Shown one piece after another: positions 6,251-64,000 of a stretch of DNA of 64,000 bases; position 1 is the stretch's first letter; every line of letters starts with the position of its first letter. The position numbers and the translations under genes are program-made. The notes under the pieces are model-generated. The model saw only the letters and a program-made list of their open reading frames with translations. It was not told where the DNA came from and made no database searches. Origin of the DNA: Octopus vulgaris (lineage: Eukaryota). The stretch is from positions 89,714,001-89,778,000 of the forward strand of contig OX597816.1 in assembly GCA_951406725.2 (NCBI GenBank), given 5' to 3'.

Positions 6251-6330
6251 TATTTATTTTTTTATTTATTAATAGTAGTAGTATTAGTAGTAGTAGTAGT
6301 ACTAGTAGTAGTAGTACTACTAGCAGCAGC

Positions 6331-6362
<32 letters not shown>

Positions 6363-6471
6363 CATCCTATCTATAAACCCTTCATCGTATTTAAGATATA
6401 ATGTCTATAGACAAAACAATCTCGAAGTTTTAGTAAATATATTATTATTATTGTTGTTGTTGTTGTTGTTG

Positions 6472-6521
<50 letters not shown>

Positions 6522-6527
<6 letters not shown>

Positions 6528-8859
6528 TAGTCTTATTTTTATCACGTGCTTTCACTGCACTACCAGGCGCAGGTCTGTGTGCCTTGAGTATGTGCTGTGG
6601 TTTGTTGTAATGCTTTTATTTTTACAGCATTGAAAGTGTTTTACGTAGGATGTGTGCGGTGCCTAGTAGTGCTATTTTCTGTATGTTATATATACTTGTT
6701 AGTCGTTTTATGTATTTGTCAGAATATTTTTTTATCATACCTAATGCGCCTACTTTGATAGGAATTGTTTCTGTTTTTAGACTCCACATTCGAGTTACCT
6801 CCATTTGCAGATCTTTTTATTTTGAATGTTTCTCCGTTTCTTTTGGAGAAACATTGACGGATATAGTTCTTTTTCAGCTATGTTGGTATTTGAGTGCTGA
6901 TACTTCCAAGTGCACCAATTACTATTGGTATCACGACTACTCTCTTCATTGACCGCAACCTTCGTATTTCCCACTTTAAATCCTCATAGATGTTTATTTT
7001 TTTCTTTTTCTTTCACATTGATCCTGTTATCATCGTGTATGCTATGTTGATTATCATACATGTCCTTTCTTTTTTATTCACCACAACAATGTCCGGTGTC
7101 GGGTGATCGCACTGGATCTTTGCATCCCACAAGATTTTACAATTATCATATTCGGTGACTCCTTCTAGACTTTACTCATAGCACGTCTTTGCTCTTTGTA
7201 GGCCGTGATTTCCACAGATCTTCCCATAGATCATTCTTGCTACATGTCATGGCGTCTTTTGTATTCCTGTTGTGCCCAATTTTGGGCATCCACTAAACGA
7301 TGTGGCATACCGTTTCACTTCTCACTCCATCCATTCTGCTTTTGTCGCTATCGGCAGTACTGTCGATTCTGCACTTCATATAGCTGGTCCTTAACGTTTA
7401 TTCCTGAGCTGCACATATGAGTACTTCTGTCTCTAGCTTCAGGTTACTCATCCTCATCCATAGCCAACGGTCCACTGCAACTGTTTTGGCCCGCATATCT
7501 CTTACATTTTCTTTTCCTTCCATGCTTTTGTTTTCTTCATTTCTTGTTTAAATTTTTCTTTCGTTACACAATTTTCAGATTTGAGGACGCTGACCTTCTT
7601 CATGTGTTTCAACAGTGGTTCCACGGCACATTTTATATACTACACTAATCTGTTTTCCTCTACTTCAATACAGTCCCGGAAAATGATCAAACCTCTCCCA
7701 CTCTTTCTTCTGGACAAGTACGGCCTATCGGTGTCACTCTTAAGGTAGAAGACTCCACATGCTGTCAACATTTTTCTTGTCTTAGTATCCATTTTCTTCA
7801 CTTCTCTCTTTTGCCATTTTATAATTCCTACTCTATACCACCCCACACCAATAATAAAAATGATAGTAATAATAATAATTATTATTAATATTATTATTGT
7901 TGTTGTTGTTGTTGTTGTTGTTATCACTAAAGGCGGCGATCTGGGAGAATCGTTAGCACGTCGGGCGAAATGCTTAGTGGTATTTCGTCGACCTTCTGAG
8001 TTCAAACACTAGGGTCGATGTAATCGATTATATCCTACCTAAAATTTCTGGACTTGTGCATATTGTAGAAAGGATTATTATTATTGTTGTTGTTGTTGTT
8101 GTTATTATTATTTTGGTTTGACACAGGTTTGGTCTTATTCTTGGTAGTATTTATGTGTATGACGGGTTACTATCTGTAACGTTAGATATCCACAAGTTTT
8201 CAGCAGTCTTTGAAGTGCTTAGAACACTCCTGATAACCTTTGCTGTCCCAAAGAAGACAAACTTTCTGTTGGAGCACTACCAGGCGTACTATTTCAAACT
8301 CACAAAATCTTACATTTCTCCGATGCCAGTACTCTTTCCATTCAATGATTGCACCATGTGTTTCCAGTTTCAAATCCCCATTTCTGGCACAGTTTATAAT
8401 GTAAAACATTTACAACTTGATCGTACTTCCATTTCTTATATTCTTCCGTTGCCAACTTAGGGCATTCTTCCACAATGTGTGCTACTATCTCGTTCCAAAT
8501 TGCACAGGCTCTACGTTTTACCCAAGTTGTTTGTTTTCATTGCTTGATCTTGAGCTGCTACAGTTAGGCACTCTTTCTTTTTTTAATTGTTCTTTTTTAA
8601 CCAAGCCTAATATTTTGTTCCACGTACACGGCCATGCATAATTATCCACAAGTTTTCAGTAGTCTTTCAATTGCTTAGAACTCTTCTTATAACCCTTGCT
8701 GTCCCTAAGATGCAAACATTCTATAGGAGCTCTATCGAGCATTCTATTTTAATATCCTTCAGCCATTTGTCTATATCTTGACTTACTATTCCCAACGCAC
8801 TAATTATTATACGCAGGACTTTTACTGTTCGCATGCTCCAAATTCTTCTCATTTCAAAT

Positions 8860-8860: not shown

Positions 8861-8928
<68 letters not shown>

Positions 8929-9035
8929 TCATCATCATCATCATCATCATCATCGTCATTATTATTAATGAATGGCGACATAAACTATAAAGCTAAACAT
9001 CTTATCAAGTAAGCTATCCAGAAACCTATCAAACG

Positions 9036-9089
<54 letters not shown>

Positions 9090-10949
9090 TAGTAGTAGTA
9101 GTAGTAGTATATCGAATTTAACATTAGCAATTTGAAGTATATCGTTGATGACCACAAAAAGGCTAAGACATAGATGTAGCGATAGAAATACTTTGATTGA
9201 TTGACAGATAAGCAGACGGAGAGGAAGGTTTAAAATTACTTACGACTTGGCCTGTAGTCTGTCCAAAAAGAAACAAAATTGATAATATTATATTCAAAAC
9301 TGATTCATTAAAAGCCATAGATTAGAGCAAGAAGCAAAATACATATGTATGTGTATATATGTAGTGGGGAGCAAAATGAGTAACTTTTGATTCCTCATTT
9401 CTCCTTACATGTTTGAAAATCATTACATTGCAAGTATAGCATTACTATTTTCTACTGCTGGATCATTTTTAGGAGTAAAAATGGGTCAGCACAGCTGTTG
9501 TTGTTGTTGAAGTTTAAAGCGTTCAGAACATAGTCAGATAGCAGGTCCCATTTTTCTTAAGAAAATTTTCCTTAATTTTGACCCGATTGGAATTGAGGTT
9601 GCTAATAAAATATCTGGATAGTTTTTGGCGCTTAATAATCCATATTCTTTTCCCTGTTGGATTCCAAGTCAATTTTTTTCCACACTAATATCTAATTTAA
9701 TCATTTTAAAGTTTCAACAGTGATGTCTAAGATGAGTAATTATCGGCTAATTTCAATAGTCGATAAGTACTGCATGGTGTGTAAATATATCAGGAAGAAG
9801 ACACTCCAGCATATCGTGATGAAGCTACAGCGAATATTTTATGTTGAGTTGGGTTTTTTTTTTAGTCGAGTTTCTTTAATTTCATATCACGTGCCATTTT
9901 CGCCTGATCTTTTTTTATTTAACTTTTTTCTTGCATTTCTGATCTTTCTTGTGTCTAGGGATAGCTAGGGATGTGTATGAGTCTCTTTTCTGGAGAATTT
10001 TAACTTTACCTTATCATGGCTTACTCGTTTTGCCCCGGCCAAAGTTGTCTTTTATATACTCAAAGAGAATGGCGATAATTTTCTAAAATAGTGATGAGAT
10101 CGTATTATAATGCTTTTAATGCATTTAGTGAAGGCCATTTCCTTACCTAATATAGTTTTTGTAATGTAGTGAACATTTGTAGAAAATACATTTTGCCTCA
10201 AAGTCAAAAATGCAGAAAAGGCTCCTCGTTGAGCCCCATTACCACCACCCTATATATATGAGAGAGAAAGAGAGAGAGGGAGGGAGAGAGAGAGAGCATA
10301 TTGACGGTGTATTAAACTTTACTTACATGGATTTCCCGCTATGCCCAGACATAGAGTCGCAATTACTACAAATAAAGAATATTATTTATTAGATTAAATT
10401 AAAATCGTAACGATTTTGTTTGGTTATTTAAAAAATTACAAGGATAATATATTGTAAGTGATTTAATTGATTCTGTTAAAGAACCGATATATGTTAGGTT
10501 AGAAAGAAAGTTCTGTCACAATTTTGACATAATCAGTTCGAGGGTACGTTTGCAATACTTACTGTTTAATAAGCTTTAATTTTTACATCCCAATGTTTTT
10601 CTTTTTCTTTTATTTTTGTTTGTTTGTCGATTGTACCATAGTGATCTTTTTTTTTCGTATCGTTTTTACCCCTTTTAAAATTACTTTAGATTAGATTTTG
10701 CACATGTTAGAAACTGCTTACGGTATAAATTCGAAAAAGGCTCTGAGGCAATGGAACTCACTAGAAATATTTGTTCTGTCTGTAAAAATTAAGCTTTGTC
10801 CGGAAATGTCAATAATAGTTTCGTTAGTTTCACTCGAGATTTTTTTTCTGTTGTTCTGTTTAAAAACCGTAGTTGAGGAAAATCCCAACCAAACTGCATG
10901 AGTGTTACCAAAACAATTCAATTCAAATCACTCTTAAATCATAAAATAC

Positions 10950-11740
10950 CTTAATGGACTAAGTAAGAAAAGTATCTAAACTTGGCTGCTGCGACCCTAT
11001 CATCTGATTGCCGCTCAGCATAATCATAGAGTTTCCCTATGCTCGTCGTTAAAGAGTAGACTCGCTGCCGAATATTTCCTGGTAGAATCATAACAAATGG
11101 TGATCATAGGTTTTTTATAACTATATTCAACAAAAATGACAATGGTTAGCACCCAAGGAGAAAGAAGAATCCATCTCCGAACCAAGAGTATTCCCGAAAA
11201 TATTATGCTTTGTATTTAGTGGTAGATGAAGGGTGGTCATCTATCTTAAAGTGTTAAACCAAAACGAAACAGTTAATGCAAAGTATTGTCGTAAACGAAA
11301 GCATTGCACAAAAATTTGCAGTAAAAGCACCCGTCATTGCTCAGTCGTAAAGGGGTGTTGTTCTTACATCATAAAGCAAAACTACATGTTACCCACGTCA
11401 CTCAGGGAAAGGTAATGGCACTAAATATTGAACTTTTGCCACATCCTCCTAACGCTCCTGACCATACTCCTTCTGACAATCATCTTTTCAGATTATTGTA
11501 ACATTATTTAGATGGAAAACTGTTTATAAATTGTGAAGAGGTTAAAGATGTTGTTGAGAGTTTCTTTGCTTAAAAACTGAAGGATTTTCTGCTCGAGTGA
11601 TCGACAGTTTGTAAATAGACGGGATTATGTTATCAATAATGAGGGGAAATATTATGTTGAGTAGATATATCAATTAAGATCAAAGGAGTATATCTTTCTT
11701 TCTTTCTCATCTTGAAATGTAACTGGACTTTTTCCAATAA
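10950..11740 (+). mobile_element. Degenerate mariner transposase remnant
   Basis: Region near 11430-11550 translates LLPHPPNAPDHTPSDNHLF..L...LDGKLF, matching the mariner HPPYSPDLAPSDYHLF motif. Confidence 0.7.
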
Positions 11741-12168
11741 ATTTTGATTCTCCTGGGAAGTTCAAATTTACTGTAGTGGAAATATAATTTAGAGATACAA
11801 AACTAAATACTGAATATGATTTGGCGTTATCTTTCTTCTGCGATGTTAATGTATCAGAAATACCAATTGTTGGGTTTTGTACAATTCTGCAGAGAGTGAA
11901 TGTGAAATTTCATGAAATGTGGGCCATTCCTCAGAGCTTTAGCAACAAGAGGGAATTGTCACATCGGAAAGTCATTACTTTTAATTATTGCATTGATCTT
12001 AAAAGACAAGTAAGCATTTGTATCGCACATCTGAGTGAAGTAATAGAGCAAATGCGGTTAAATATTAATCTGTTATACATATTTTGAGCATGTCATAGTA
12101 TCCGTTCTAAGAACACTTTATGGCACCCACAAATGAAAAAAACATCAATATTTCCACTATTTTAACGA

Positions 12169-37833: not shown

Positions 37834-39552
37834 CAGTGATGTCAACCCCCAACACACTATATCGGACATAACGTTTAGTGCCCCTGATGTCTTAGCGGCG
37901 ATAAACGAAATAAAACACAATTCAGCAGTAGGCCCCAATAGGTTCCCTGCTTGTGTCCTGAAGGTGTGTCGACACCAACTTGCATCTCCCCTTGCTAATC
38001 TGTGGAGAAACTCACTGGATGCTGGCTATATTCCAAAAAACCTTCTGCCCCAGTCTGTTGTCCCAGTTTTCAAAAAGGGAAACAAGTCCCTTGCAGTGAA
38101 CTACCGTCCGATCTCACTCACCTCTCATATCATCAAGGTATTTGAGAGGGTGGGGAGATCTCGAATAACCCAATTTCTGGAAAGCAACAGACGGCTGATC
38201 TCTAACCAACATGGGTTCCGTAATGGAAGGGACTGCCTAACGCAGCTCCTGCATCACTTTGATGACATTTTGAGAGCTTTGGGAGAGGGCCCCAACACCG
38301 ATGTCTTCTACATTGATTTCAGTAAGGCCTTCGACAGGGTCGATCACAAGATCCTATTGAAAAAATTATCCAGCATTGGTGTCTCTGGAAAGTTACTGAA
38401 ATGGATCAAGTGTTTCCTGACAGACAGATCTCAACATGTTGTAGTTGAAGGGGTAAGATCAAGCCCAGCCAAAGTCAGTAGTGGCGTTCCGCAAGGCACT
38501 GTGCTGGGCCCACTTCTTTTCATCATCTACATTAATGACATTAATGACATCATCAAGCACAGCAACATAAAAATCTTTGCAGATGATTCCAAGCTACAGA
38601 AGGTCATAAATGAGGCGAGTGACCGGACATGCCTTCAGTCAGATCTACTGGCTGTTATCCAATGGGCAGAAAAAAACAATATGCTGCTGAACGAGGATAA
38701 ATTTGAGTTAATCCACTTTGGAAAAGAGGATGCCCTGAAACTCCCATACTCCCTTCCTTCAGGTGAAACTCTCGCGGCGTCCAACAACATCAGAGACTTG
38801 GGAGTAATTGTGGACAACAACATAAGCTGGGCCACTCATATAAACACCAAAGTTGACATGGCCCGCAGAATGTGTTCCTGGATTCTCAGAACTTTCCAGT
38901 CGAGAGATATCCACACCATTATCCTTCTCTTCTCCACTTTTGCCCGACTCCACCTTGAATACTGTTGTCCACTGTGGTCTTCCCACACAATACAAAGTAT
39001 CATAAAAGTTGAAGCACCTCAAAGGGCAATCACAAGAAAGATAGATGGCATGACAGGCCTCGACTATTGGGGTCGACTAGAAAAGCTAAAACTTTATTCT
39101 CTCCAACGTCGTCGTGAGCGCTACATCATCTGCATGATGTGGAAAATATTCCATCAGCATTGCCCAAATGATGTTGGCATCACCTTTAAGGTACATCCAA
39201 GGCTTGGGCCCCGTGCCATCCGCCCAAAACAAAAGTCGCACTCTCATCTCATAACAACAATACGGCACAATTATTTCACCTCAATTGGCCCCGCTCTCTT
39301 TGACATTACACCAAAACACATTAAAACAGAAACTGACCCTATAGGGTTCAAGAAGTCTTTGGACAGATTCCTTCAAGAAATCCCGGATAAACCCCCTACA
39401 CCCGGATATGTCTCTGTAAACAATAACTCTCTACTTGAGTGGGCCATAGTGCCCAAATTCTGACTTGAAAGACTTCACCAGGTGGTGCTATTAAGTTAGA
39501 CATGGCCTGGGCCAATAATGGCCGAAACCTATCAAAGTATCAAAGTATCAAA

Positions 39553-39555
<3 letters not shown>
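37830..39555 (+). mobile_element. CR1-group LINE, 5'-truncated, RT frame open, inserted in (TA)n
   Basis: [40 protein letters not shown]; tail (ATCAAAGT)x3. Confidence 0.93.
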
Positions 39556-39613
<58 letters not shown>

Positions 39614-39774: not shown

Positions 39775-40034
39775 GTATATCTATATACATATATATATAT
39801 ACATATATATATATACATATATCTATATACATATATCTATATACATATATTTATATACATATAAACTAATAGTTATCGCCATACTAATATGGCATTCTTA
39901 TAAAAATAAGAAAAAAGCTGTCCGCTTATTAGCTCCATGAGGCCATCGCCTTAAGTTAGCTATTTGATACACAAACTGTATCCATATAACCTTCGAACAA
40001 GGGAGGTCAGTCGCTCCACACTACTTGACCGGCA

Positions 40035-40076
40035 GCTACAGACGCGTTTCGGGGTATTGCCCCTTTTCAATGCAGC
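40035..40076 (-). ncRNA. Minimal type I hammerhead, U3-A8 variant (A)
   Basis: GCUGCA-UUGAAAA-GGGGcaauaCCCC-GAAA-CGCGUC-UGUAGC. Confidence 0.85.
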
Positions 40077-40571
40077 GTAGCCAGCCAGTAGGTGTCGCTT
40101 CCGACAATCTCTGTTCGATGGTTTTATTTACCTAGTTTCGGTGGAATACATCCACTTGTTTTCAATAATAGAAATATTAAAATAACTAAGTCTCTCTAAA
40201 AGAGAACAGCGGCAGCGTTCCCGGAAAATAATAGTTATCGCCATACTAATATGGCATTCTTATAAAAATAAGAAAAAAGCTGTCCGCTTATTAGCTCCAT
40301 GAGGCCATCGCCTTAAGTTAGCTATTTGATACACAAACTGTATCCATATAACCTTCGAACAAGGAGGTCAGTCGCTCCACACTACTTGACCGGCAGCTAC
40401 AGACGCTTTCGGGGCCTTTTCAATGCAGCCAGCAGTAGGTGTCGCTTCCGACAATCTCTGTTCGATGGTTTTATTTACCTAGTTTCGGTGGAATACATCC
40501 ACTTGTTTTCAACTAGGTAAATAAAACCATCGAACAGAGATTGTCGGAAGCGACACCTACTGGCTGGCTAC

Positions 40572-40613
40572 GCTGCATTGAAAAGGGGCAATACCCCGAA
40601 ACGCGTCTGTAGC
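40572..40613 (+). ncRNA. Minimal type I hammerhead, variant A, inverted copy
   Basis: Exact reverse complement of 40035-40076. Confidence 0.85.
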
Positions 40614-40924
40614 TGCCGGTCAAGTAGTGTGGAGCGACTGACCTCCCTTGTTCGAAGGTTATATGGAAATATATATACATATATCTATATACAATAATAG
40701 AAATATTAAAATTACTAAGTCTCTATAAAAGACATTACGGCAGCGTTTACTGGAAATTAATTGTTATCGCCATATTAATATGGCATTCTTATAGATATAA
40801 GAATAATCGCTGCCATGGTCAAATCCATGAGGCCACCGCCATCAAGATAGCTATTGATACACATCTGTATCCATTATAACCTTCGAACAAGGGAGGTCAG
40901 CCGCTTCACACTGCCAGTCCGACA

Positions 40925-40966
40925 GCTACAGACGTGTTTCGGGGTATTGCCCCTTGTCAATGTAGC
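40925..40966 (-). ncRNA. Minimal type I hammerhead, variant B
   Basis: GCUACA-UUGACAA-GGGGcaauaCCCC-GAAA-CACGUC-UGUAGC. Confidence 0.85.
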
Positions 40967-41264
40967 GCAGTCAGACCCGCAGGTGTCGCCACTGACGTCG
41001 CTGTTCGAAGGCTTATATTTACCTAGTTTCAGTGGAATACATCCACTTGTTTTCAATAATAGAAATATTAAAATTACTAAGTCTCTATAAAAGACATTAC
41101 GGCAGCGTTTACTGGAAATTAATTGTTATCGCCATATTAATATGGCGATAACAATTAATATTGATACATGGAGCTGACCATGGCAGCGATTATTCTTATA
41201 TCTATAAGAATGCCATATTAATATGGCGATAACAATTAATATCTATATACATATATCTATATAA

Positions 41265-42765
41265 ACTTAGACTTAGATAAACTTAGATATGTTTCGACCA
41301 AAGATTGGTCCAGGCCATGTCTAACTTAATAGCACCACCTGATAGGATTATTCGAATCCTGTTTAAGTGAAGTTTTGTTCAAGTAGTGAGTTCTTGTTGG
41401 GTGAGTTGTATCCAGTTTTGTTCAAGTAGTGAGTTCTTGTTGGGTGAGTTGTATCCAGTTTTGTTCAAGTAGTGAGTTCTTGTTGGGTGAGTTGTATCCA
41501 ATTATGGGTGGCTTATCTGGTATTCTTTGAAGGAATCTATCCAGACTCTGTTTAAAGTTGATGGGATCCTTTTCCTCTTTGATCTCCCTCGGGACAATGT
41601 TAAATAGGGCAGGGCCTGTTGAGGAAAAGAAATTATGTTGCAGTGTACATGTATGTTGTGATCTTGAATTTGGCAGGGGACGTATAGCTCTTGGTCCAAG
41701 CCTTGGATGAACCTTGAAGCTAATGTTTAGGTCGTTTGGGCAAAGTTGGCGGTATATTTTCCACATCGTACAAATGATGTACCGCTCACGGCGACGCTGG
41801 AGGGAGTAAAGTTTTAAGGCTTTAAGGCGATCCCAATAATCGAGAGCAGCCATGCCTTCAATTTGTTTAGTGAGAGCCCTCTGGGGTGACTCAATTCTGG
41901 AGATGTTTTGTCTTGTGTGAGGAGACCACAGTGGGCAGCAGTATTCAAGGTGTGGCCGTACAAAGGAGGGAAAAAGTGGTATGATGACACCTTGTTCTCT
42001 AGACCGGAAAGTTCTTAAGATCCAGGAACTCATCCTACGGGCTATATCGACCTTCTTGTTGATGTGTGCACTCCAACTGAGATCGTCATCAACAATTACA
42101 CCCAGGTCTCTGATATTGTTAGAGGCTGTGAGCGGTTCCCCTGAAGGAAGAGAGTATGGTTGTTTTAGTGAGAAATTTCTTCCAAAATGCATCAGCTCAA
42201 ATTTTCCCTCATTCAGTTGCATTTTGTTTCTGTCTGCCCATTGACTCACAGCATATAGATCAGACTGGAGTTGAGTTCGATCTGCTTCTTCATTGACGAT
42301 TTGCTGGAGCTTAGTGTCATCAGCGAATATTTTCACTTTGCAGTAATGTACGACACTGGAAAGGTCGTTTACGTAAATTATGAAGAGTAGCGGACCCAAA
42401 ACAGTTCCCTGGGGAACACCGCTGGTGCCTTTTGCTGGGTTTGAGTGGACTCCATCAACTACAACATGTTGTGTTCTATTCGCCAGGAAATACTTAATCC
42501 AGTGTAGAACTTTTCCACGGATTCCAACATTTGCCAATTTTGAGAGTAGGATGTTATGGTCTACCCTGTCGAACGCTTTACTGAAGTCAAGATATATGAC
42601 GTAAGAGTTCGAACCTGTTCCCAAGACTTTGAGTACATCTTCAATGTGGTGTAAGAGCTGTGTTAGACAGTCCCTGCCACAGTGAAAGCCATGCTGATTT
42701 GAATTTAGGAGTTTGTGGGTCTCCAGGAAGTCAGCTATCCTTGATCTTAACACTCTTCAAACACT
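41265..42765 (-). mobile_element. CR1-group LINE, 5'-truncated (relative of 37830-39555)
   Basis: ORF 41422..42753: [30 protein letters not shown]; (TCTAAG)-type tail. Confidence 0.92.
41371..41499. repeat. 43-bp tandem triplication at the LINE ORF end
   Basis: agttttgttcaagtagtgagttcttgttgggtgagttgtatcc starting at 41371, 41414 and 41457. Confidence 0.95.
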
Positions 42766-42811
42766 TTAATACATATGTCAATATATATACATATATCTAT
42801 ATACATATATC

Positions 42812-44676: not shown

Positions 44677-44798
<122 letters not shown>

Positions 44799-44938
44799 CA
44801 TGCATACATATTTATATATAAATATATATAATACATGCATATATATATATAATAGAAATATCAAAATTACTAAGTCTCTCTAAAGGAGATTACGGCAGCG
44901 TTACTGGATATTAATAGTTATCGCCATACTAATATCAA

Positions 44939-44978
44939 TGCATTGATAAAGGGCAACAACCCTGAAACATGTCTGCAG
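44939..44978 (+). ncRNA. Minimal type I hammerhead, variant C copy 1
   Basis: UGCA-UUGAUAA-AGGGcaacaaCCCU-GAAA-CAUGUC-UGCA. Confidence 0.82.
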
Positions 44979-45298
44979 ATGTCTGACTAGCAAGGTGAAG
45001 CGGCTGACCTCCACTGTTCGAAGGTTTGTAATGGAAGCAGGTTCGTGTGTCAAATAGCTAGCTAGAGGCGATGGCCTCTTGGAGCTAATCAGCAACAGCT
45101 TTAGTCTTATATTTATAGACTACCATATTAGTATGGCGATAACTATTAATATCCAGTAACGCTGTCGTAATCTCCTTTAGAGAGACTTAGTAATTTTAAT
45201 ATTTCTATTATTGAAAACAAGTGGATGTATTCCACTGTAACTAGGTAAATAAAATCTTCGAACAGACGGTCAGTAGCGACACCTGCGGGTCTGACTAC

Positions 45299-45341
45299 GC
45301 TGCATTGATAAAGGGCAACAACCCTGAAACATGTCTGCAGA
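45299..45341 (+). ncRNA. Minimal type I hammerhead, variant C copy 2
   Basis: CUGCA-UUGAUAA-AGGGcaacaaCCCU-GAAA-CAUGUC-UGCAG. Confidence 0.85.
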
Positions 45342-45504
45342 TGTCTGACTAGCAAGGTGAAGCGGCTGACCTCCCCTGTTCGAAGGTTTGTAATGGACGC
45401 AGGTTCGTGTGTCAAATAGCTAGCTAGAGGCGATGGCCCCTTGGAGCTAATCAGCGACAGCTTTAGTCTTATATTTATAGAGTACCATATTAGTATGGCG
45501 ATAA

Positions 45505-45552
<48 letters not shown>

Positions 45553-47780: not shown

Positions 47781-50733
47781 CCTTCGAATATGCAATAAAT
47801 ACCGATAAATTTGGGCTGTAACCATATACACCCACTTTATAGTTTGATAGTTCCCACACATGTATTTCAGTTTTATTACATTTAATGCACCATCTGTGCT
47901 CGATATACATATTGATTATATTTGGTATTCCATGTTATAAAAGGTCTGGTTTTCGGAATTTGCAGCATAATTCGCCAAGATGAAGAATCTATCGTTTATT
48001 GCAGCTGTTGCTGGTACGTATCACCGTTTTCATACTTTCTTGAGTAGTGACTTTGTCTCATCTTTTCTCCTCCACTTCTCTCTATCTCTAAATTATATTT
48101 CCACTACAGTAAATTTGAACTTCCCAGGAGAATCAAAAACTATTAGAAAAAGTCCAGTTACATCTCAAGATGAGAAAGAAAGAAAGAAATACTCCTTTGA
48201 TCTTAATTAATATATCTACTCAACATAATATTTCCCCTCATTATTGATAACCTAATTCCGTCTATTTACAAACTGTCGATCACTCGAGCAGAAAATCCTT
48301 CAGTTTTTAAGCAAAGAAACTCTCAACAACATCTTTAACCTCTTCACAATTTATAAACAGTTTTCCATCTAAATAATGTTACAATAATCTGAAAAGATGA
48401 TTGTCAGAAGGAGTATGGTCAGGAGCGTTAGGAGGATGTGGCAAAAGTTCAATATTTAGTGCCATTACCTTTCCCTGATGTAAGAACAACACCCCTTTAC
48501 GACTGAGCAATGACGGGTGCTTTTACTGCAAATTTTTGTGCAATGCTTTCGTTTACGACAATACTTTGCATTAACTGTTTCGTTTTGGTTTAACACTTTA
48601 AAATAGATGACCACCCTTCATCTACCACTAAATACAAAGCATAATATTTTCGGGAATACTCTTGGTTCGGAGATGGATTCTTCTTTCTCCTTGGGTGCTA
48701 ACCATTGTCATTTTTGTTGAATATAGTTATAAAAAACCTATGATCACCATTTGTTATGATTCTACCAGGAAATATTCAGCAGCAAGTCTACTCTTTAACG
48801 ACGAGCATAGGGAAACTCTATGATTATGCTGAGCGGCAATCCGATGATAGGGTCGCAGCAGCCAAGTTTAGATACTTTTCTTACTTAGTCCATTAAGGTA
48901 TTTTATGATTTAAGAGTGATTTGAATTGAATTGTTTTGGTAACACTCATGCAGTTTGGTTGGGATTTTCCTCAACTACGGTTTTTAAACAGAACAACAGA
49001 AAAAAAATCTCGAGTGAAACTAACGAAACTATTATTGACATTTCCGGACAAAGCTTAATTTTTACAGACAGAACAAATATTTCTAGTGACTTCCATTGCA
49101 GCAGAGCCTTTTTCGAATTTATACCGTAAGCAGTTTCTAACATGTGCAAAATCTAATCTAAAGTAATTTTAAAAGGGGTAAAAACGATACGAAAAAAAAG
49201 AACACTATGGTACAATCGACAAACAAACAAAAATAAAAGAAAAAGAAAAACATTGGAATGTAAAAATTAAAGCTTATTAAACAGTAAGTATTGCAAACGT
49301 ACCCTCGAACTGATCATGTCAAAATTGTGACAGAACTTTCTTTCTAACCTAACATATATCGGTTCTTTAACAGAATCAATTAAATCACTTACAATATATT
49401 ATCCTTGTAATTTTTTAAATAACCAAACAAAATCGTTACGATTTTAATTTAATCTAATAAATAATATTCTTTATTTGTAGTAATTGCGACTCTATGTCTG
49501 GGCATAGCGGGAAATCCATGTAAGTAAAGTTTAATACACCGTCAATATGCTCTCTCTCTCTCCCTCCCTCTCCCTCTTTCTCTCTCATATATATAGGGTG
49601 GTGGTAATGGGGCTCAACGAGGATCCGTTTCTGCATTTTTGACTTTGAGGCAAAATGTATTTTCTACAAATGTTCACTACATTACAAAAACTATATTAGG
49701 TAAGGAAATGGCCTTCACTAAATGCATTAAAAGCATTATAACACGATCTCATCACTATTTTAGAAAATTATCGCCATTCTCTTTGAGTATATAAAAGACA
49801 ACTTTGGCCGGGGCAAAACGAGTAAGCCATGATAAGGTAAAGATAAATTCTCCAGAAAAGAGGCTCATACACATCCCTATCTAACCCTAGACACAAGAAA
49901 GATCAGAAATGTAAGAAAAAAGTTAAATAAAAAAAGATCAGGCGAAAATGGCACGTGATATGAAATTAAAGAAACTCGACTAAAAACAAAACCCAACTCA
50001 ACATAAAATATTCGCTGTAGCTTCATCACGATATGCTGGAGTGTCTTCTTCCTGATATATTTACACACCATGCAGTACTTATCGACTATTGAAATTAGCC
50101 GATAATTACTCATCTTAGACATCACTGTTGAAACTTTAAAATGATTAAATTAGATATTAGTGTGGAAAAAATTGACTTGGAATCCAACAGGGAAAAGAAT
50201 ATGGATTGTTAAGCACCAAAAACTATCCAGGTATTTTATTAGCAACCTCAGTTGCGATCGGGTCAAAATTAAGGAAAGTTTTCTTAAGATAAAAGGGACC
50301 TGCTATCTGACTATGTTCTGAACGCTTTCAACTTCAACAACAACAACAGCTGTGCTGACCCATTTTTACTCCTAAAAATGATCCAGCAGTAGAAAATAGT
50401 AATGCTATACTTGCAATGTAATGATTTTCAAACATGTAAGGAGAAAATGAGGAATCAAAAGTTACTCATTTTGCTCCCCACTACATATATACACATACAT
50501 ATGTATTTTGTTTCTTGCTCTAATCTATGGCTTTTAATGAATCAGTTTTGAATATAATATTATCAATTGTGTTTCTTTTTGGACAGACCAAAGGCCACTC
50601 TAAGTAATTTTAAACCTTCCTCTCCGTCTGCTTACCTGTCAATCAATCAAAGTATTTCTATCGCTACATCTATGTCTTAGCCTTTTTGTGGTCATCAACG
50701 ATATGCTTCAAATTGCTAATGTTAAATTCGATA

Positions 50734-50783
<50 letters not shown>

Positions 50784-50943
50784 CGTTTGATACGTTTCTG
50801 GATAGCTTACTTGATTGATTGAGTCTAGTTTCAGCTTATGAGCTGTGGCCATGCTGGGGCACCGCCATTTATGATAATATATTTAGCTTTATAGATTATG
50901 TCGCCATCCATTAATAATAATTACGATGATGATGATGATGAGG

Positions 50944-51068
<125 letters not shown>

Positions 51069-51430
51069 TATAATAATAATAAATTTGAAATGAGAAGAAT
51101 TTGGAGCATGCGAACAGTAAAAGTCCTGCGTATAATAATTAGTGCGTTGGGAATAGTAAGTCAAGATATAGACAAATGGCTGAAGGATATTAAAATAGAA
51201 TGCTCGATAGAGCTCCTATAGAACGTTTGCATCTTAGGGACAGCAAGGGTTATAAGAAGATTCCTAAGCAATTGAAAGACTACTGAAAACTTGTGAATAA
51301 TTCTGCATGGCCATGTACGTGGAACAAAAATTTAGTGGATATCTAACGTTACAGATAGTAACCCGTCATACACATAAATACTACCAAGAATAAGACCAAA
51401 CCTGTGCCAAACCGAAATAATAATAATAAT

Positions 51431-51484
<54 letters not shown>

Positions 51485-53041
51485 AATAATAATAATCCTT
51501 TCTACAATAGGCACAAGTCCAGAAATTTGAGATAGGATGTAGTCGATTACATCGACCCTAGTGTTTGAACTCAGAAGGTTGACGAAATACCACTAAGCGT
51601 TTCGCCCGACGTGCTAACGATTCTCCCAGATCGCCGCCTTTAGTGATAACAACAACAACAACAACAACAATAATAATATTAATAATAATAATTATTATTA
51701 TTACTATCATTTTTATTATTGGTGTGGGGTGGTATAGAGTAGGAATTATAAAATGGCAAAAGAGAGAAGTGAAGAAAATGGATACTAAGACAAGAAAAAT
51801 GTTGACAGCATGTGGAGTCTTCTACCTTAAGAGTGGCACCGATAGGCTGTACTTGTCCAGAAGAAAGAGTGGGAGAGGTTTGATCATTTTCCGGGACTGT
51901 ATTGAAGCAGAGGAAAACAGATTAGTGTAGTATATAAAATGTGCCGTGGAACCACTGTTGAAACACATGAAGAAGGTCAGCGTCCTCAAATCTAAAAAAT
52001 GTGTAACGAAAGAAAAATTTAAACAAGAAATGAACAAAACAAAAGCATGGAAAGAAAAGAAAATGTAAGAGATATGCGGGCCAAAACAGTTGCAGTGGAC
52101 CGTTGGTTATGGATGAGGATGAGTAACCTGAAGCTAGAGACAGAAGTACTCATATGTGCAGCTCAAGAATAAACTTTAAGGACCAGCTATATGAAGTGCA
52201 GAATCGACAGTACTGCCGATAGCGACAAAAGCAGAATGGATGGTGTGAGAAGTGAAACGGTATGCCACATCGTTTAGTGGATACCCAAAATTGGGCACAA
52301 CAGGAATACAAAAGACGCCATGACATGTAGCAAGAATGATCTATGGGAAGATCTGTGGAAATCACGGCCTACAAAGAGCAAAGACGTGCTATGAGTAAAG
52401 TCTAGAAGGAGTCACCGAATATGATAATTGTAAAATCTTGTGGGATGCAAAGATCCAGTGCGATCACCCGACACCGGACATTGTTGTGGTGAATAAAAAA
52501 GAAAGGACATGTATGATAATCAACATAGCATACCCGGTGATAACAGGATCAATGTGAAAGAAGAAGAAAAAATAAACAACTATGAGGATTTAAAGTGGGA
52601 AATACTAAGGTTGCGGTCAATGAAGAGAGTAGTCGTGATACCAATAGTAATTGGTGCACTTGGAAGTATCAGCACTCAAATACCAACATAGCTGAAAAAG
52701 AACTATATCCGTCAATGTTTCTCCAAAAGAAACGGAGAAACATTCAAAATAAAAAGATCTGCAAATGGAGGTAACTCGAATGTGGAGTCTAAAAACAGAA
52801 ACAATTCCTATCAAAGTAGGCGCATTAGGTATGATAAAAAAATATTCTGACAAATACATAAAACGACTAACAAGTATATATAACATACAGAAAATAGCAC
52901 TACTAGGCACCGCACACATCCTACGTAAAACACTTTCAATGCTGTAAAAATAAAAGCATTACAATAAAGCACAGCACATACTCAAGGCACACAGATCTGC
53001 GCCTGGTAGTGCAGTGAAAGCACGTGATAAAAATAAGACTA

Positions 53042-53116
<75 letters not shown>

Positions 53117-53120
<4 letters not shown>

Positions 53121-57936: not shown

Positions 57937-57967
<31 letters not shown>

Positions 57968-58248
57968 TATTTACTAAAACTTTGAGATTGTTATGTCTAT
58001 AGACATTATATCTTAAATACGATGAAGGGTTTATAGATAGAATACTATATAGCTTCTTAAAGATGTTTATAAACTTCGATATCTTAGCTATGATAGTTCG
58101 TCCCAACTTGCCGAAGACACTCTTAAAAATTTCGTAAATTTCCATATCTTAGCTGTGCTAGATCCTCTCAAAAGACCCTCTAGTTCTATACATAAATTCG
58201 CTCACACGCTGGAACACTGGCAAGCTTACCTGACTCCCTCTTCATCTC

Positions 58249-58314
<66 letters not shown>

Positions 58315-59530
58315 GCCATCTTTTGAATATTTGTCTCCTTTGAATTTGTCTTGTGCAAATTGTCTGTTCAATTTGCATTATTTTGTTTTTGTTCTGGGTG
58401 TGGTGTTCTTAAACTTGTGTGCTGAGGTAGATCATCGTTGTGGAATATTTCTTGTGTGTGTGTATTTTGTGTGCTATGTGTGTTCAGATTTCACGTTCAG
58501 GAAAGGGGCTACTCTGTTGGGATTACCGTCGCAGGTAATGGCTCTTCTTTGAAGTATCTGAGTGCAAAATATTGCTTGTGTATGCAGGAAGAGAAAGCTT
58601 AATCCCTAATGTTTAACATGTTATCTGTTGATTATATAATGTTTAATTTTTCAGTAATACAGAGTTCACATTTGGTACCTTGTCCTCAGTACTTATATGC
58701 TTTAGCAATAATTTTCCATTCTATCTGGGGGTTGATTACTCTACCTTCTTTCAATGTCTATATCATATTTGACAGAGATTTTGCATGTTTTTTAATATTT
58801 TTGTCTCTGAATGACGCCTTGTATACGAATTCTTTCACAAGACAGTTGTTGCTTAGAGGACAGCGGTTTTCGGATCTACATTTGCATTGTCTTTCGGGGG
58901 TGTTTCTGGTGTGTTTATATTATTGACCCTACATTGGGGAGATAACTATAGCTAACTTTGACAGTATTTTTGTTGAAGATCTTGTGGTATTTGTGTGAGT
59001 ATAGTAAGTAGCTGTCTATTAGCTTTAAGAAATTTCTAGCTTTGTTAGTACCTACATTCATGCTAAAGGTGGGTTAAACCATAAAATTTCCTTCTTTCTG
59101 CGTCTTCTTCGTCTATTTATTTTTGGTTCAATGTAGTATATGTTATTCTTAAAGGTGGATCTTTCTAATGCAGCATTATAATATGGGGCGGCTTTTTCAA
59201 AAGTGTCTTCGTCGGCGGATAACTTGGAGACGCGCCTGCTAAAGCTGTTAACCATTTGTTTAATTACTGCTGGTGGGTGGTTTAATTACTGGTGGTGGTG
59301 GAACCATTATCTATGTACGAGGCTACCTCTTTTGGTTTGTGGTACGGTTTAAATTTTCCTGTGTCAAGATTCATTTTAATGTCTAGGAAGTTGTCTAAAT
59401 ATTTTGCATAATTTTTCTTCTATCCATATCATGTCCGTTTTTATTGTATACTACTTAAATAAAGTATATATATACATATATATCTATATATATATATATA
59501 TATATACATATATACATATATATGTGTATG

Positions 59531-60499: not shown

Positions 60500-63400
60500 A
60501 TGAAAAAACAAGTCAGGATAGAAAATGCTAAAATAATTTTATAAAGAACATTTCAGTACCGGTTCCAGTCATTGAGACCTTTTCAACTGTAACAATTAAA
60601 TAATTAAATTTAGAAAAATTAAAAGAAAAGTTTTTTTAAAAGAATATTTGTATAGTGTTCAAATATAAGTGGCATTTTCTTTGTTTCTGCCATTCACCGT
60701 CTCTCTTGTTTACTCTTGTGGGTTCGAGGTCGTTGTGAATTCTTGGTAGGGAAGAAGAAGGAGGAGGAGGAGGAGGAGGAAAAGGAAGTGGAGGGGAGGA
60801 AGGAGACAAAGAATTTGAGAATGTCTTGATTGTAGTATTTTGAATGGTCAGTGGAGGCTAGCAGTTGCTGTTCAATTCATGAAAAAAATTCTATTGGAAG
60901 TTTTGTTTATAGAATTTGTGTAGGTGTTATACTAAAAAGCATTAGAGATAAAGTTAGGAAGGAAAAGGGGGAGAAGAAGAAGAAGAAGAAGAAGAAGAAG
61001 AAGAAGAAGAAGAAGAAGAAGAAGAAGAAGAAAAAGAAGAAGAAGAAGAAGAAGAAGAAGAAGAAGAAGAAGGAGGAGGAGAAGAAGAAGAAGAAGAAGA
61101 AGAAGAAGAAGAAGAAGAAGAAGGGAGAATATGAATGAGTGAAAGTAGTGAGGTGTTGGATGACTTAAAGTTGGCACGTTATGGATTATAGCAGTGATTG
61201 GGGCTGATTTTAATGGATTCTTAGGAATGTAATATTTGCGTGTGTATTCGTGTTATTCTAAGGCCGAGGTGGATATATCGTTTATCGTAGGCGCATTCAG
61301 AAGGGGTCTGTATTTTGTAATAAAGAGAGTTTCTTTACTAATTCGTTGACTCCCGATTATATCGTCCTTGAATTGGTAGAGGGAAAAAATCCTGAAGCCT
61401 GGAGTTCTGTTGTTGTCGCAAATATCTATGTGTTGGCTGAATGCTATTTTTCTGTTTAGGGGAATTTTTATCTGGGATCTGTGCAGGGTCATTCTTTTAC
61501 GTAAACTATTTTTTGTTTGGCCTATGTATTGCTCTTGACACCCAGAGTAGGTTAGTGTGTATATCAGGTTCTCCGAAGCACATGTGAAGTTGCTTTTCAC
61601 TGTGAAACGTTGTTCCTGTTTGAAGGAGAACTCTGATCCCTCAATTAGATAATCGCATATCCCACAATTGGGTCTTCCACATTTTTTTACTGTCGACTTC
61701 TGTGTTGATGAGCGTATTCGGGCTTGTGTTAGGAGACTTTTCATAGATTTGGGCTGTCTCTTGCTTTTTATGATCGTGTGTTTGGAGTATTAAGTTCATT
61801 CTGTGGTCCTTTTCTAGCAGGGGTATGTTTTGGAGGATGGTGTCGGAGGCTTCATTGTTGAGAGGGTTGTGTGTGGAGATGTATGGTAAGGCTTTTGGTC
61901 GTAAATTTTTCTTTAATTTGGGATGTCTGATTTCCTGGATGTTGAGTTGAAGGGCACGTTGAATGCATATGTCAATTAGTGAAGGTGGGTAGTTCCTGGT
62001 GATGAGGGTATCTTTTAGTTCATGTAGTCGTGTATCTCTGGTGTTTGCATTAGAAACTATAGTACATATCCTTTTTGCTAGATTGAAGGGGATATTCATT
62101 CTTGTGTGTCTGGGGTGGCATGAATTGAATGGTAGCTATTGCTTGGAATCCATAGGCTTATAGTATATATCTGTTTCTATTACATTATTAGATTTCTTAA
62201 TGAGGATGTCGATGAAGGGGAGTTGTTGCTGGCTATATTCCATTGTGAATTGGATGTTTACGTCCAGTCCATTTAAAATTGCTTGGAATTCTTTGAGTTT
62301 CTCTATATTTTCATGCCAAAGAATGAAACAGTCATCTAGGTATCTCTTCCAGTTGTTTTCTATGTAGAGGGAGAAAGTGCTGCCATATCTTTCTAGAACC
62401 TTACGATACAGACTGATTTCTAGATATCCTATGAATAGGTTGGCAAAGGAGGGGACCATTTGCGTACCCATCGCAGTCCCCGATTTTTGTCGGTAGAAGT
62501 TGTCTTTGAAGGCGAAGTAGTTATTTTTGATGCGATGTGGGAGTTCGTTGGCGTGATTCTCTAGCCAGAATTGAATTGCCTCTATTCCTAGGTTGTGGGG
62601 GATATTGGAATAGAGGTTGACTACATCGAAGGATACTAGTAGGGTGTTTTTGTTTATTGTTTTAGGCAGGTGATTGAGCATATCCAGGTCATCCCTTATA
62701 TAGCTTTTGACATGTTTAAGGAGTGGTTTTAAGAGGGTATCTAAAAAGTTACTGAGGCGGTGGGTTTTGAATGTGGGACCTGCTATTATCGGTCTTAATT
62801 TGAGGTCATTAGGATTAGGGACTTTAATTATTTTGTCTGTGGCTATCTTGCATGCGATACTTATTTTCTCACTTTTGTGTATCTTGGGAATACTGTAGAA
62901 TTGGCTGGTTTTACTTGTGAAATTGGTCATATAGTCATATTCTTTGTCGGTGAGCCCTTCTTTGTATGGGTTTAACATGGATTTTAGTTCTCTCATTCTT
63001 TGCTGACTGTAGTTTGGGGCCTTTTCATAATATGTTGTGTCTTCCAACATAGATAGTACTGAAGTTATGTAAAATGTCGTGTCCATTAAAACAACTGCAC
63101 TCCCTTTACCGGCCTCTTTGATTGTTATTTTTTTGTCATTTTTTAATTTGTTCAGCTCAGCGCATTCTTTTTTGCTGAAGTTTTTTTTGTGTTTTTGTTT
63201 GTGCATATGTTGATTTTGGTAATTTGAGATGTGTTCACAGAAATGATCAAGAGTTTTGGTCTTAACTTTTGAGGGGGTGTAGTTACTCCTATTTCTGACA
63301 AATTATTCGTCCTCGTTGTATTTGTCGTATAGCTCCTCAGTAAGTCGTAATTTTTTACAGAATTCTGCGATGACTTCTTTCATTTCATTTTAGTTGGGTT

Positions 63401-63550
63401 GTTGTTGGGTGGGTGTAAACTTGAGTCCTTTCGAGGGTATATTGATTTGGTTTGCTGTTAGTTCATTGTGAGTTAGATTGATCATTTTTATCACTTTTGG
63501 TTCCTCCTGCCTGTTTGGTGCTATCTTATGTTTCTATGTTTTCGTATTGG
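60500..63550 (-). mobile_element. Neptune-like Penelope element (RT + zinc finger + GIY-YIG), frameshifted
   Basis: SKGLKFTPT, RPIIAG, SFDVVNLYSNI, GTAMG, RYLDD; CGRPNCGIC...NLIY...YIGQT...LRKRM..H. Confidence 0.92.
60553..60590 (-). ncRNA. Minimal hammerhead in the PLE 3' repeat (U3-A8 core, GAAA mutated to GGAA)
   Basis: CAG-UUGAAAA-GGUCucaauGACU-GGAA-CCGGUA-CUG; palindromic stem III ACCGGU. Confidence 0.65.
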
Positions 63551-63554
63551 GTCT

Positions 63555-64000
63555 TAAAATTCCCCCAAAACAGAAAAATAGCATTCAGCCAACACATAGA
63601 TATTTGCACTAACAACAAAACTCCCTCTACCAATTCAGGGACGATAGAACCGGGAGCCAACGAATTAGTAAATAAACTTTCTTTATTACAAAATAAAGGC
63701 CCCTTCTGAACGCGTCTACGACAAACGATATATCCACCTCGGCCTTAGAATAACACAAATACACACGCAAAAAGTACATTCCTAAGAATCCATTAAAAAT
63801 CAGCCCCAATCACTGCTATAATCCATAACATGCCAACTTTAAGTCATCCAACACCTCACTACTTTCACTCATTCATATTTTCCCTTCTTTTTATTTTTCT
63901 TCTTCTTCTTTCTCCTACCCCTTCTCCTTCCTTCTCCTACCTAACTTTATCACTAATGCTTTTTAGTATAACACCTATGCAAATCCTATAAACAAACCTT
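63555..64000 (+). repeat. Inverted, diverged copy of the Neptune 3' region (pseudo-LTR), running off the window
   Basis: Aligns to the reverse complement of ~60900-61470 (NRKIAFSQHIDIC appears in both). Confidence 0.85.

What the first reader, a model, noticed from the sequence alone, without database searches (positions are those of the whole stretch)
44939..45341. Intact hammerhead pair predicts an exact excised monomer, 44974-45335
Seen: two identical + strand hammerhead cores 362 nt apart, each with a GUC triplet ending at 44973 and 45335. Their ACAUGU stem III palindromes could pair with each other in a double-hammerhead fold. Inference: this is the copy in the window most able to release a unit-length RNA. 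The tandem A pair cannot, because its second ribozyme (~40395-40430) has deletions in stems II and III.
Basis: partly seen in the sequence, partly recalled or inferred. Interest (0 to 1): 0.75.

Follow-up and report, generated by a model that had tools for sequence, protein, structure and literature searches.

The report
Retrozyme copy with promoter between ribozymes
Two identical self-cutting RNA motifs 362 bases apart are really there and mark one older copy of an abundant small jumping repeat of a known kind (a retrozyme), but its likely promoter lies between the two motifs, so this copy probably does not release the predicted RNA monomer.

Summary
Confirmed: two identical type I hammerhead cores (U3-A8 variant), C17 at 44973 and 45335, 362 nt apart. 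They belong to one 666-bp insertion (44849-45514) of a 362-nt non-coding retrozyme family with hundreds of genomic copies, set in (TA)n with an inverted arm, the Penelope-type footprint. The dimer model is well supported for the family: stem III stays self-complementary in six related ribozyme types, and in complete arrays the double hammerhead folds at or near the energy minimum. The claim for this copy is weak. Core A has lost its distal helix I arm. The only snRNA-type promoter-like element (45213-45230; predicted start about 45275) lies between the cores. Read-through RNA would carry an 87-bp inverted arm predicted to block the fold. Better source loci exist elsewhere, mostly in a younger sister family. 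A site-specific L1/Tx1-like LINE lineage inserts at the predicted start of these repeats and at +1 of U2 genes. I found this independently, but the scan had already noted it, and the two fixed priming ends, on other DNA of this genome. No cleavage, circle, transcript of this locus or Penelope partner was shown.

The parts
44681..44848 (.). (TA)n/(TG)n microsatellite, left flank and likely target
44849..44935 (-). Inverted arm: unit positions 187-273, outer end at the family's 'long' fixed end (273); complementary to 45125-45211
   Evidence: (97.7% over 87 bp)
44936..44938 (.). 3-nt junction between the inverted and direct arms; truncates the 5' helix I arm of ribozyme A
44939..44978 (+). Hammerhead A: 4-nt 5' arm, core UUGAUAA 44943-44949, stem II 44950-44963, GAAA, palindrome 44967-44972, C17 at 44973
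44974..45335 (+). One full 362-nt unit between the two cleavage sites (the proposed monomer); folds as a rod under helix I with a branched top
   Evidence: circular fold -115.1 kcal/mol, z -5.4 against 100 shuffles
45125..45211 (+). Unit positions 187-273, holding the two fixed 3' ends of family insertions (214 = 45152; 273 = 45211), both AT-rich
45213..45230 (+). PSE-like element (predicted snRNA-type promoter); the only one on this arm
   Evidence: (best of 724 positions, 6.9 bits)
45270..45286 (+). Empty target site of the site-specific L1/Tx1-like elements; predicted transcription start about 45274-45278
45275..45362 (+). Hammerhead B with full extended helix I; core 45305-45311, palindrome 45329-45334, C17 at 45335
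45301..45514 (+). Second, partial unit (positions 1-214) ending at the 'short' fixed end; 6 differences in 214 nt from the first unit
45506..45548 (.). (TA)n right flank, overlapping the unit's AT-rich end
39863..40667 (-).
40692..41243 (-). Third, more diverged insertion with one core whose stem III (ACACGU) is no longer palindromic

Best explanation
The two cores are one insertion of a 362-nt non-coding retrozyme, likely pasted into a (TA)n tract by a Penelope-like enzyme, and this copy is likely a dead-end product rather than a source of unit-length RNA. Family cycle (inferred): an snRNA-type promoter inside each unit starts RNA about 30 nt upstream of the ribozyme. Arrays with a promoter followed by two cores fold a double hammerhead through the stem III palindromes, cut out a monomer and probably circularise it. 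A Penelope-type RT/GIY-YIG protein primes from both ends of a (TA)n break at unit positions 214 and 273 and copies across the cleavage site, giving a direct arm and an inverted arm. This copy (shown): the direct arm starts at unit position 1 and ends at 214 of the next unit, so it holds two cores but only one promoter-like element, between them. Its own transcript would start near 45275 and carry core B alone, able to cut only with a second molecule in trans (inferred). Read-through RNA from upstream would form an 87-bp duplex enclosing core A (predicted).
For: Family: 159 exact copies of the 39-nt core, 575 of the 28-nt end motif, 2489 first-look candidates; no PLE ORF joined to a unit in any locus held. 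Fixed ends: 78 of 93 and 90 of 101 outer arm ends fall at about 214 or 273, and 54 of 78 and 62 of 90 of these abut (TA)n. In two-armed insertions with both ends fixed, 42 of 45 (family A) and 18 of 18 (family B) pair a short with a long end, as here. Inverted arms, a one-sided tail and (TA)n bias are PLE hallmarks (PMC8557442, passages). Copies within one insertion share lineage variants in 152 of 255 comparisons, against 26.6 expected. Arms cross the cleavage site and reach 4.4 units, and 5' ends do not pile up at position 36, so the template is a circle or an uncut multimer. Dimer: palindromes ACAUGU, ACGCGU, ACUAUAGU, ACUCGAGU, ACUAGU, ACUGCAGU in related families; the fold costs 0.7 and 1.5 kcal/mol in complete arrays, 4.3 here, and 21-75 with the inverted arm. 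Promoter: a matrix built only from 7 U1/U2 promoter types picks 45213-45230 as best of 724 positions, and picks the same spacing in families B, C and D. Sister LINE copies insert 3 nt before U2 +1 and at the matching place in retrozymes. Newt satellite 2 has an snRNA promoter (PMC2220036, passage citing Coats 1994). Only 1 of 9 cloned Xenopus genomic dimers cleaved in vitro (10.64898/2026.07.22.740005, part 3).
Against: No experiment and no raw reads: promoter, cleavage and circles are all inferred. The family A PSE score (6.9 bits) is at the low end of real PSEs (leave-one-out 5.8-19.3), and I saw the likeness by eye before building the matrix. No autonomous Penelope with this repeat was found (none in the 30 best of 148 GIY-YIG loci). 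Unit-specific variants in three family B insertions (L272, L274, L291) fit a linear multimer or two templates better than one circle. Energy models ignore tertiary contacts, proteins and pseudoknots. A start between about 44910 and 44939 would leave the double fold only about 4 kcal/mol uphill.
Confidence: 0.68

Rival explanations
1. One reading: RNA spanning both cores folds a cis double hammerhead and releases 44974-45335 from this locus.
For: Both cores are identical and intact. The fold is nested and beats two single hammerheads (4.3 against 8.2 kcal/mol). The penalty stays near 4 kcal/mol if 26 nt or less of the inverted arm is transcribed. The monomer keeps the family's strong fold (z -5.4).
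Against: No promoter-like element upstream of core A. Read-through brings the 87-bp arm (+75 kcal/mol for the nested fold). The ribozyme that cuts 45335 has a 4-bp helix I. The copy is old: its two repeats differ at 6 of 214 nt.
Confidence: 0.17
2. The family is copied from linear, uncut multimeric transcripts of arrays, not from circles; the ribozyme is dispensable or weak (U3-A8 core, A-U at the base of stem II). This changes the template step only.
For: A variant confined to the terminal unit of both arms (L274), to one arm (L272), or to two of three overlapping copies (L291). Minimal PLE hammerheads cleaved poorly in vitro (PMC4209133, part 2). An insertion of the ORF1-only element plus unit was copied across the single cleavage site (L154/L198).
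Against: Palindrome and helices are conserved through sequence change in six families. U3-A8 is reported active in vitro (PMC3088659, passage). No recurrent first-versus-last-unit difference in 28 tandem pairs, apart from two-way hotspots and one duplicated locus pair. Related mollusc retrozymes form abundant circles (PMC7229834, part 3).
Confidence: 0.3
3. The units are solo or truncated pseudo-LTRs of an autonomous Penelope-like element rather than a separate non-autonomous retrozyme.
For: Insertion anatomy is that of PLEs, and U3-A8 minimal hammerheads occur in PLE pLTRs (PMC4209133, part 1). Xenopus retrozymes match PLE pLTRs (10.64898/2026.07.22.740005).
Against: Units join head-to-tail with no ORF between them. 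No PLE ORF adjoins a unit in orientation among the loci held. None of 30 GIY-YIG loci has this repeat as its 3' end.
Confidence: 0.07

Closest known systems
Metazoan non-LTR retrozymes (Mytilus 350-390 bp, axolotl Rtz331/353, coral; PMC7229834, parts 2-3 of 6, discussion and passages read; bioRxiv 10.64898/2026.07.22.740005, parts 1 and 3 of 5 read)
   Same: Non-coding 150-450 bp tandem unit, one type I hammerhead per unit, GC under 50%, highly self-paired predicted circle, weak palindromic stem III needing a dimer (as axolotl HHR_Amex1), co-occurs with PLEs.
   Different: U3-A8 core and A-U at the base of stem II; mostly dispersed 1-2-unit insertions with inverted arms and two fixed ends in (TA)n rather than long arrays; expression and circles not shown here.
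Newt satellite 2 (dimer hammerhead and snRNA-type promoter; seen only as cited in PMC2220036, PMC7229834 and PMC3088659 passages; the primary paper PMC308520 was not held)
   Same: Double-hammerhead logic and a predicted snRNA-type internal promoter upstream of the ribozyme.
   Different: Invertebrate-type genome, unrelated sequence; promoter here is predicted from the genome's own U1/U2 promoters, not assayed.
Penelope-like elements and their non-autonomous derivatives (PMC8557442, passages; PMC4209133, parts 1-2 of 4)
   Same: 5' truncation, partial tandems, inverted 5' copy, tail at one end only, (TA)n bias, minimal and U3-A8 hammerheads.
   Different: No RT-GIY-YIG ORF; tail is 59 nt rather than 30-40; no matching autonomous pLTR found.
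Target-specific Tx1-clade LINEs: Tx1L in Tx1D, Keno in U2, Tx1-Mar (PMC4494074, passages and section 15; PMC4640811, passages); applies to the element that targets this repeat, not to the finding itself
   Same: APE-RT-zf ORF2 most like L1 ORF2p, fixed target in multicopy sequence, 16-20 bp duplications, tandem stacking.
   Different: Targets are hammerhead repeats at their predicted start and the first bases of U2; no tree was built, so Tx1 membership is by features only.

Membership tests
Type I hammerhead ribozyme | Core C3-U4-G5-A6-N7-G8-A9, G12-A13-A14, A15.1-U16.1, H17 (or the U3-A8 covariant) | tested here: met
   UUGAUAA...GAAA...UC at both sites; U3-A8 is a known natural variant
Type I hammerhead ribozyme | Helices I and II with covariation | tested here: met
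   Stem II AGGG/CCCU, GGGG/CCCC, GAGG/CCUC across families; helix I 5 bp plus extension for core B, only 4 bp for core A
Type I hammerhead ribozyme | G10.1-C11.1 pair | tested here: not met
   A-U in family A; G-C in families B and C; A-U again in a further family
Type I hammerhead ribozyme | Self-cleavage | not testable with these tools
   needs in vitro transcription
Double (dimeric) hammerhead | Stem III too short alone, with self-complementary stem/loop III | tested here: met
   Six different palindromes in related families; double fold 0.7-1.5 kcal/mol above the free ensemble in complete arrays
Metazoan non-LTR retrozyme | 150-450 bp non-coding tandem unit with one type I hammerhead; no LTR, PBS or ORF | tested here: met
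   362-nt unit, head-to-tail, no ORF; PBS and PPT not searched explicitly
Metazoan non-LTR retrozyme | Multicopy and mobile | tested here: met
   159 exact cores, 575 exact end motifs, dispersed with unrelated flanks
Metazoan non-LTR retrozyme | Highly self-paired monomer | tested here: met
   z -5.4 (A), -6.3 (B), -5.5 (C) as circles
Metazoan non-LTR retrozyme | Expressed as linear and circular monomers | tested here: inconclusive
   Only assembled contigs of runs guessed to be RNA; family-like contigs bridge the cleavage site but cannot show strand, ends or circularity
PLE-mobilised element | 5' truncation, partial tandem, inverted copy, one-sided tail, (TA)n target | tested here: met
PLE-mobilised element | Autonomous PLE sharing the pLTR or 3' end | tested here: inconclusive
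   None in the 30 best of 148 GIY-YIG loci, nor beside units in loci held; search far from exhaustive
snRNA-type Pol II transcription unit | PSE about 55 nt upstream of the start | tested here: met
   Best matrix site lies 50-56 nt before the LINE junction in families A-D; U1/U2 spacing 54-58 in 38 of 40 genes; sequence-level only
snRNA-type Pol II transcription unit | Capped start, SNAPc dependence, 3' box | not tested
   no raw reads; 3' box not searched
Tx1 clade (targeting LINE) | APE-RT ORF2 of the L1 group, knuckle-bearing ORF1, sequence-specific target with TSD | tested here: met
   the CCHC knuckle of the ORF1-only element scores below Pfam's cut-off
Tx1 clade (targeting LINE) | RT phylogeny inside Tx1 | not tested
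   no named reference sequences returned

The most novel reading that the evidence does not exclude
These retrozymes are parasitic snRNA-type genes. Each unit carries a PSE that starts RNA at the foot of the ribozyme's helix I, so only insertions long enough to hold promoter plus two ribozymes (about 660 nt or more in one arm) can make circles and propagate. A Penelope enzyme copies the RNA from two fixed points, one short and one long, the long one stopping just before the PSE. An L1/Tx1 lineage, with an ORF1-only passenger, hijacks that same start site in at least five retrozyme families and in U2 genes.
Probability: 0.5. Interest if true: 0.62.

Novelty: new member of a known kind. Interest (0 to 1): 0.38.

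Why it matters
The locus itself is one of hundreds and probably inert. Its value is as a test case: it separates 'two intact ribozymes' (the criterion for an active retrozyme in 10.64898/2026.07.22.740005) from 'promoter plus two ribozymes', and predicts which genomic copies make circles. The family gives a natural covariation series for dimer hammerheads, a strict short-end/long-end rule that constrains how Penelope-type enzymes prime, and a LINE that marks the repeats' start sites. I found no paper on a LINE targeting hammerhead repeats. Repbase reports, subscription journals and supplements were not seen.

Tried and rejected
Rfam at gathering thresholds: no match in the window. Sequencing runs: no RNA holder listed; runs only guessed to be RNA, all contigs. 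Laying four runs on the locus left 44941-45032 nearly bare, because contigs fit the second repeat as well; this says nothing on expression of this copy. Laying four runs on L225 showed no listed contig bridging the ORF1-only element into the ribozyme. A loose-end motif from those contigs, tried as a possible autonomous pLTR, has no match in the genome. Two exact cores 3.9 kb apart (L031) looked like a PLE but hold two ORF1-only elements. A 6.5-kb gap in L215 is a Gypsy-type insertion, not an ORF2. The Neptune-like PLE at 61253-63500 shares no sequence with the unit. The family A copy in L340 lies opposite a PLE and looks like a chance neighbour. A TATA/Inr reading of the promoter (note 6) was dropped for the PSE reading. 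The palindrome tally is biased by its own filter and is not used as evidence. A trans-dimer fold crashed and was not obtained. Protein searches returned no clade name for the LINE. Sampling note: the '0 of 60' and '2 of 64' two-core counts leave out loci already held, among them multi-unit L002, L005 and L018, so they understate the share; the 60 came from the first 100 listed of 159 hits, the 64 from the first 100 of 575.

Full report
Observation. The window shows two identical hammerhead cores starting at 44939 and 45301, with GUC ending at 44973 and 45335. The core reads UUGAUAA, the U3-A8 covariant of C3-G8, which is reported in nature (PMC4209133 part 1) and as active in vitro (PMC3088659 passage). 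Stem III is the 6-nt palindrome ACAUGU, too short to close alone. A core pattern has 5 matches in the window against 0.01 by chance. Rfam finds nothing.

Anatomy of the insertion. Self-comparison gives a 666-bp element: an inverted arm 44849-44935 (unit positions 187-273), 3 junction bases, a full unit 44939-45300 and a partial unit 45301-45514 (positions 1-214), between (TA)n tracts. The junction removes all but 4 nt of the 5' helix I arm of core A. The two repeats differ at 6 of 214 nt and the nearest other copy is 97% identical, so the insertion is not recent.

The family. The genome G000 (2.8 Gb, 227 contigs; an animal by its U1/U2 genes and repeats, group not tested) holds 159 exact copies of the 39-nt core and 575 of the 28-nt end motif. 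In two samples of 60 and 64 loci, 33 and 37 have an inverted arm, and 78 of 93 and 90 of 101 outer ends fall at about position 214 or 273, mostly against (TA)n (the second sample is anchored on the motif at 187-214, and the samples overlap in part). This locus follows the rule. Such anatomy matches PLE insertions as described in PMC8557442 (passages). Two intact cores in one arm are uncommon: 0 of 60 and 2 of 64, counts that omit multi-unit loci already held. The neighbour at 39863-40667 belongs to a younger sister family B, 82% identical, with units 99-100% alike and arms up to 4.4 units.

Template. Arms run across the cleavage site and 5' ends show no excess there (3 of 105 within 4 nt of position 36), so a cut linear monomer is not the usual template. 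Copies within one insertion share lineage variants far more than chance (152 of 255, 26.6 expected), and 28 tandem pairs show no recurrent first-versus-last difference beyond two-way hotspots and one duplicated locus pair. This fits a circle or a homogeneous multimer. Against a single circle, three of 20 family B insertions carry unit- or arm-specific variants (L272, L274, L291). I leave circle against multimer open, about 60:40.

Dimer model. Related families found through their flanks have stem III sequences ACGCGU, ACUAUAGU, ACUCGAGU, ACUAGU and ACUGCAGU, all self-complementary (one common variant, ACUCGGGU, needs G-U pairs). The double hammerhead is a nested fold. From the predicted start, it costs 0.7 kcal/mol in a family B array (the free minimum already has it) and 1.5 in complete family A locus L015. 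At this locus it costs 4.3 from 44939, against 8.2 for two single hammerheads. In the dimer, site 44973 is cut by core B with a full helix I, and site 45335 by core A with 4 bp. With 36, 56 or 87 nt of the inverted arm in the RNA the cost rises to 21, 50 and 75 kcal/mol; a pseudoknotted form would need the 3' part to thread the loop repeatedly (inference).

A LINE marks the start site. An ORF1-only element of 1.7 kb ends directly on unit position 332 (window 45270) in 15 of 21 genomic hits (11 separate places), on the matching site of family C in 3, and elsewhere in 3; where both flanks are held, 11-21 nt of the site are duplicated. Its ORF is related to ORF1 of an autonomous LINE (29% over 217 aa) whose ORF2 is APE-RT-zf and closest to L1 ORF2p. 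Of the 30 best ORF2 loci, 21 end 27-31 nt before a hammerhead-like core, 1 on the family C site followed by another LINE, 7 on another repeat and 1 lacks the 3' end (the query came from a copy beside family C). Eight of 20 hand-picked loci show a full-length copy with a 16-20 bp duplication inside a retrozyme, and two sister copies sit 3 nt before +1 of U2 genes. Family B is hit too. The site in this window is empty.

Promoter. U1 and U2 genes of this genome share a motif whose AGT core lies 54-58 nt before +1 in 38 of 40 genes examined. A matrix from 7 promoter types scores 45213-45230 highest of 724 positions in the unit (6.9 bits; real promoters 5.8-19.3 left out in turn; 0.0006 of window positions reach 6), 50 nt before the LINE junction. 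The best site lies 52-56 nt before it in families B, C and D. That puts +1 near 45274-45278, at the foot of the extended helix I of core B. Newt satellite 2 is reported to use an snRNA promoter (PMC2220036 passage; primary paper not held). The plus strand of the window has this element only at 45213, between the two cores. Loci with promoter plus two intact cores exist: 3 of 27 best family A loci and 12 of 20 best family B loci, both sets chosen for completeness.

Verdict on the locus. Shown: sequence, anatomy, family statistics, LINE junctions. Predicted: folds and promoter. Inferred: Penelope mobilisation, circles, and that this copy does not release 44974-45335. Only 1 of 9 Xenopus genomic dimers cleaved in vitro (10.64898/2026.07.22.740005 part 3). 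Contigs of runs guessed to be RNA bridge the family's cleavage site (records 7 and 28) but cannot show strand, ends, circles or locus of origin. No autonomous partner was found.

Novelty. The element is a new member of the metazoan non-LTR retrozymes (PMC7229834). Searches for a LINE targeting hammerhead repeats found no such paper (listings only); Repbase and supplements were not seen. The scan had already noted the LINE, the promoter reading and the two fixed ends on other pieces of this genome; these are unchecked notes, and I reached the LINE and promoter readings before looking. What this locus adds is the consequence: two intact ribozymes are not enough if the promoter lies between them.

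Noticed in passing
L031, L194-L206, L212, L213, L215-L218, L225: ORF1-only 1.7-kb element (about 450 aa, CCHC knuckle) inserted site-specifically at unit position 332, often stacked in tandem with 11-21 bp duplications.
   Followed up: yes
L292-L321, L352-L371: Autonomous L1/Tx1-like LINE subfamilies with different fixed targets: at least five hammerhead repeat families, U2 +1 (L364, L366), a site 30 nt after a TATAAAAG (L368), and unidentified repeats (L314-L319, L360-L362).
   Followed up: partly
L242-L271: Family C retrozyme (356 nt) with a U3-G8 wobble core, between canonical C3-G8 and U3-A8; same predicted architecture with no BLAST-detectable similarity to family A.
   Followed up: partly
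window 60898-64000: Decayed Penelope-like element (RT and GIY-YIG with a cysteine-rich linker, Neptune-like from recall), minus strand, with inverted pLTR and (TTC)n flank; unrelated to the retrozyme.
   Followed up: partly
G000: Many GIY-YIG loci share an open frame of 781 aa, suggesting a young PLE family; 3' ends seen in the 30 loci fetched do not match units A-C.
   Followed up: partly
window 37860-39560 and 41265-42770: Two related LINE RT fragments (69% identical), facing each other around the family B and third retrozyme insertions.
   Followed up: no
window 8862-11797 with 48083-51017; 6451-8297 with 51190-53118; 4761-6252 with 57960-59457: Long inverted repeat pairs (92-95%) of LINE-like sequence across the window.
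   Followed up: no
unit positions 69-79: 5' ends and inversion junctions cluster here (about 15 of 105 in one sample), inside the rod under helix I; possibly an RT pause.
   Followed up: no
L274, L291, L272: Variants confined to terminal units or to one arm, hinting at linear multimeric or two separate templates.
   Followed up: partly
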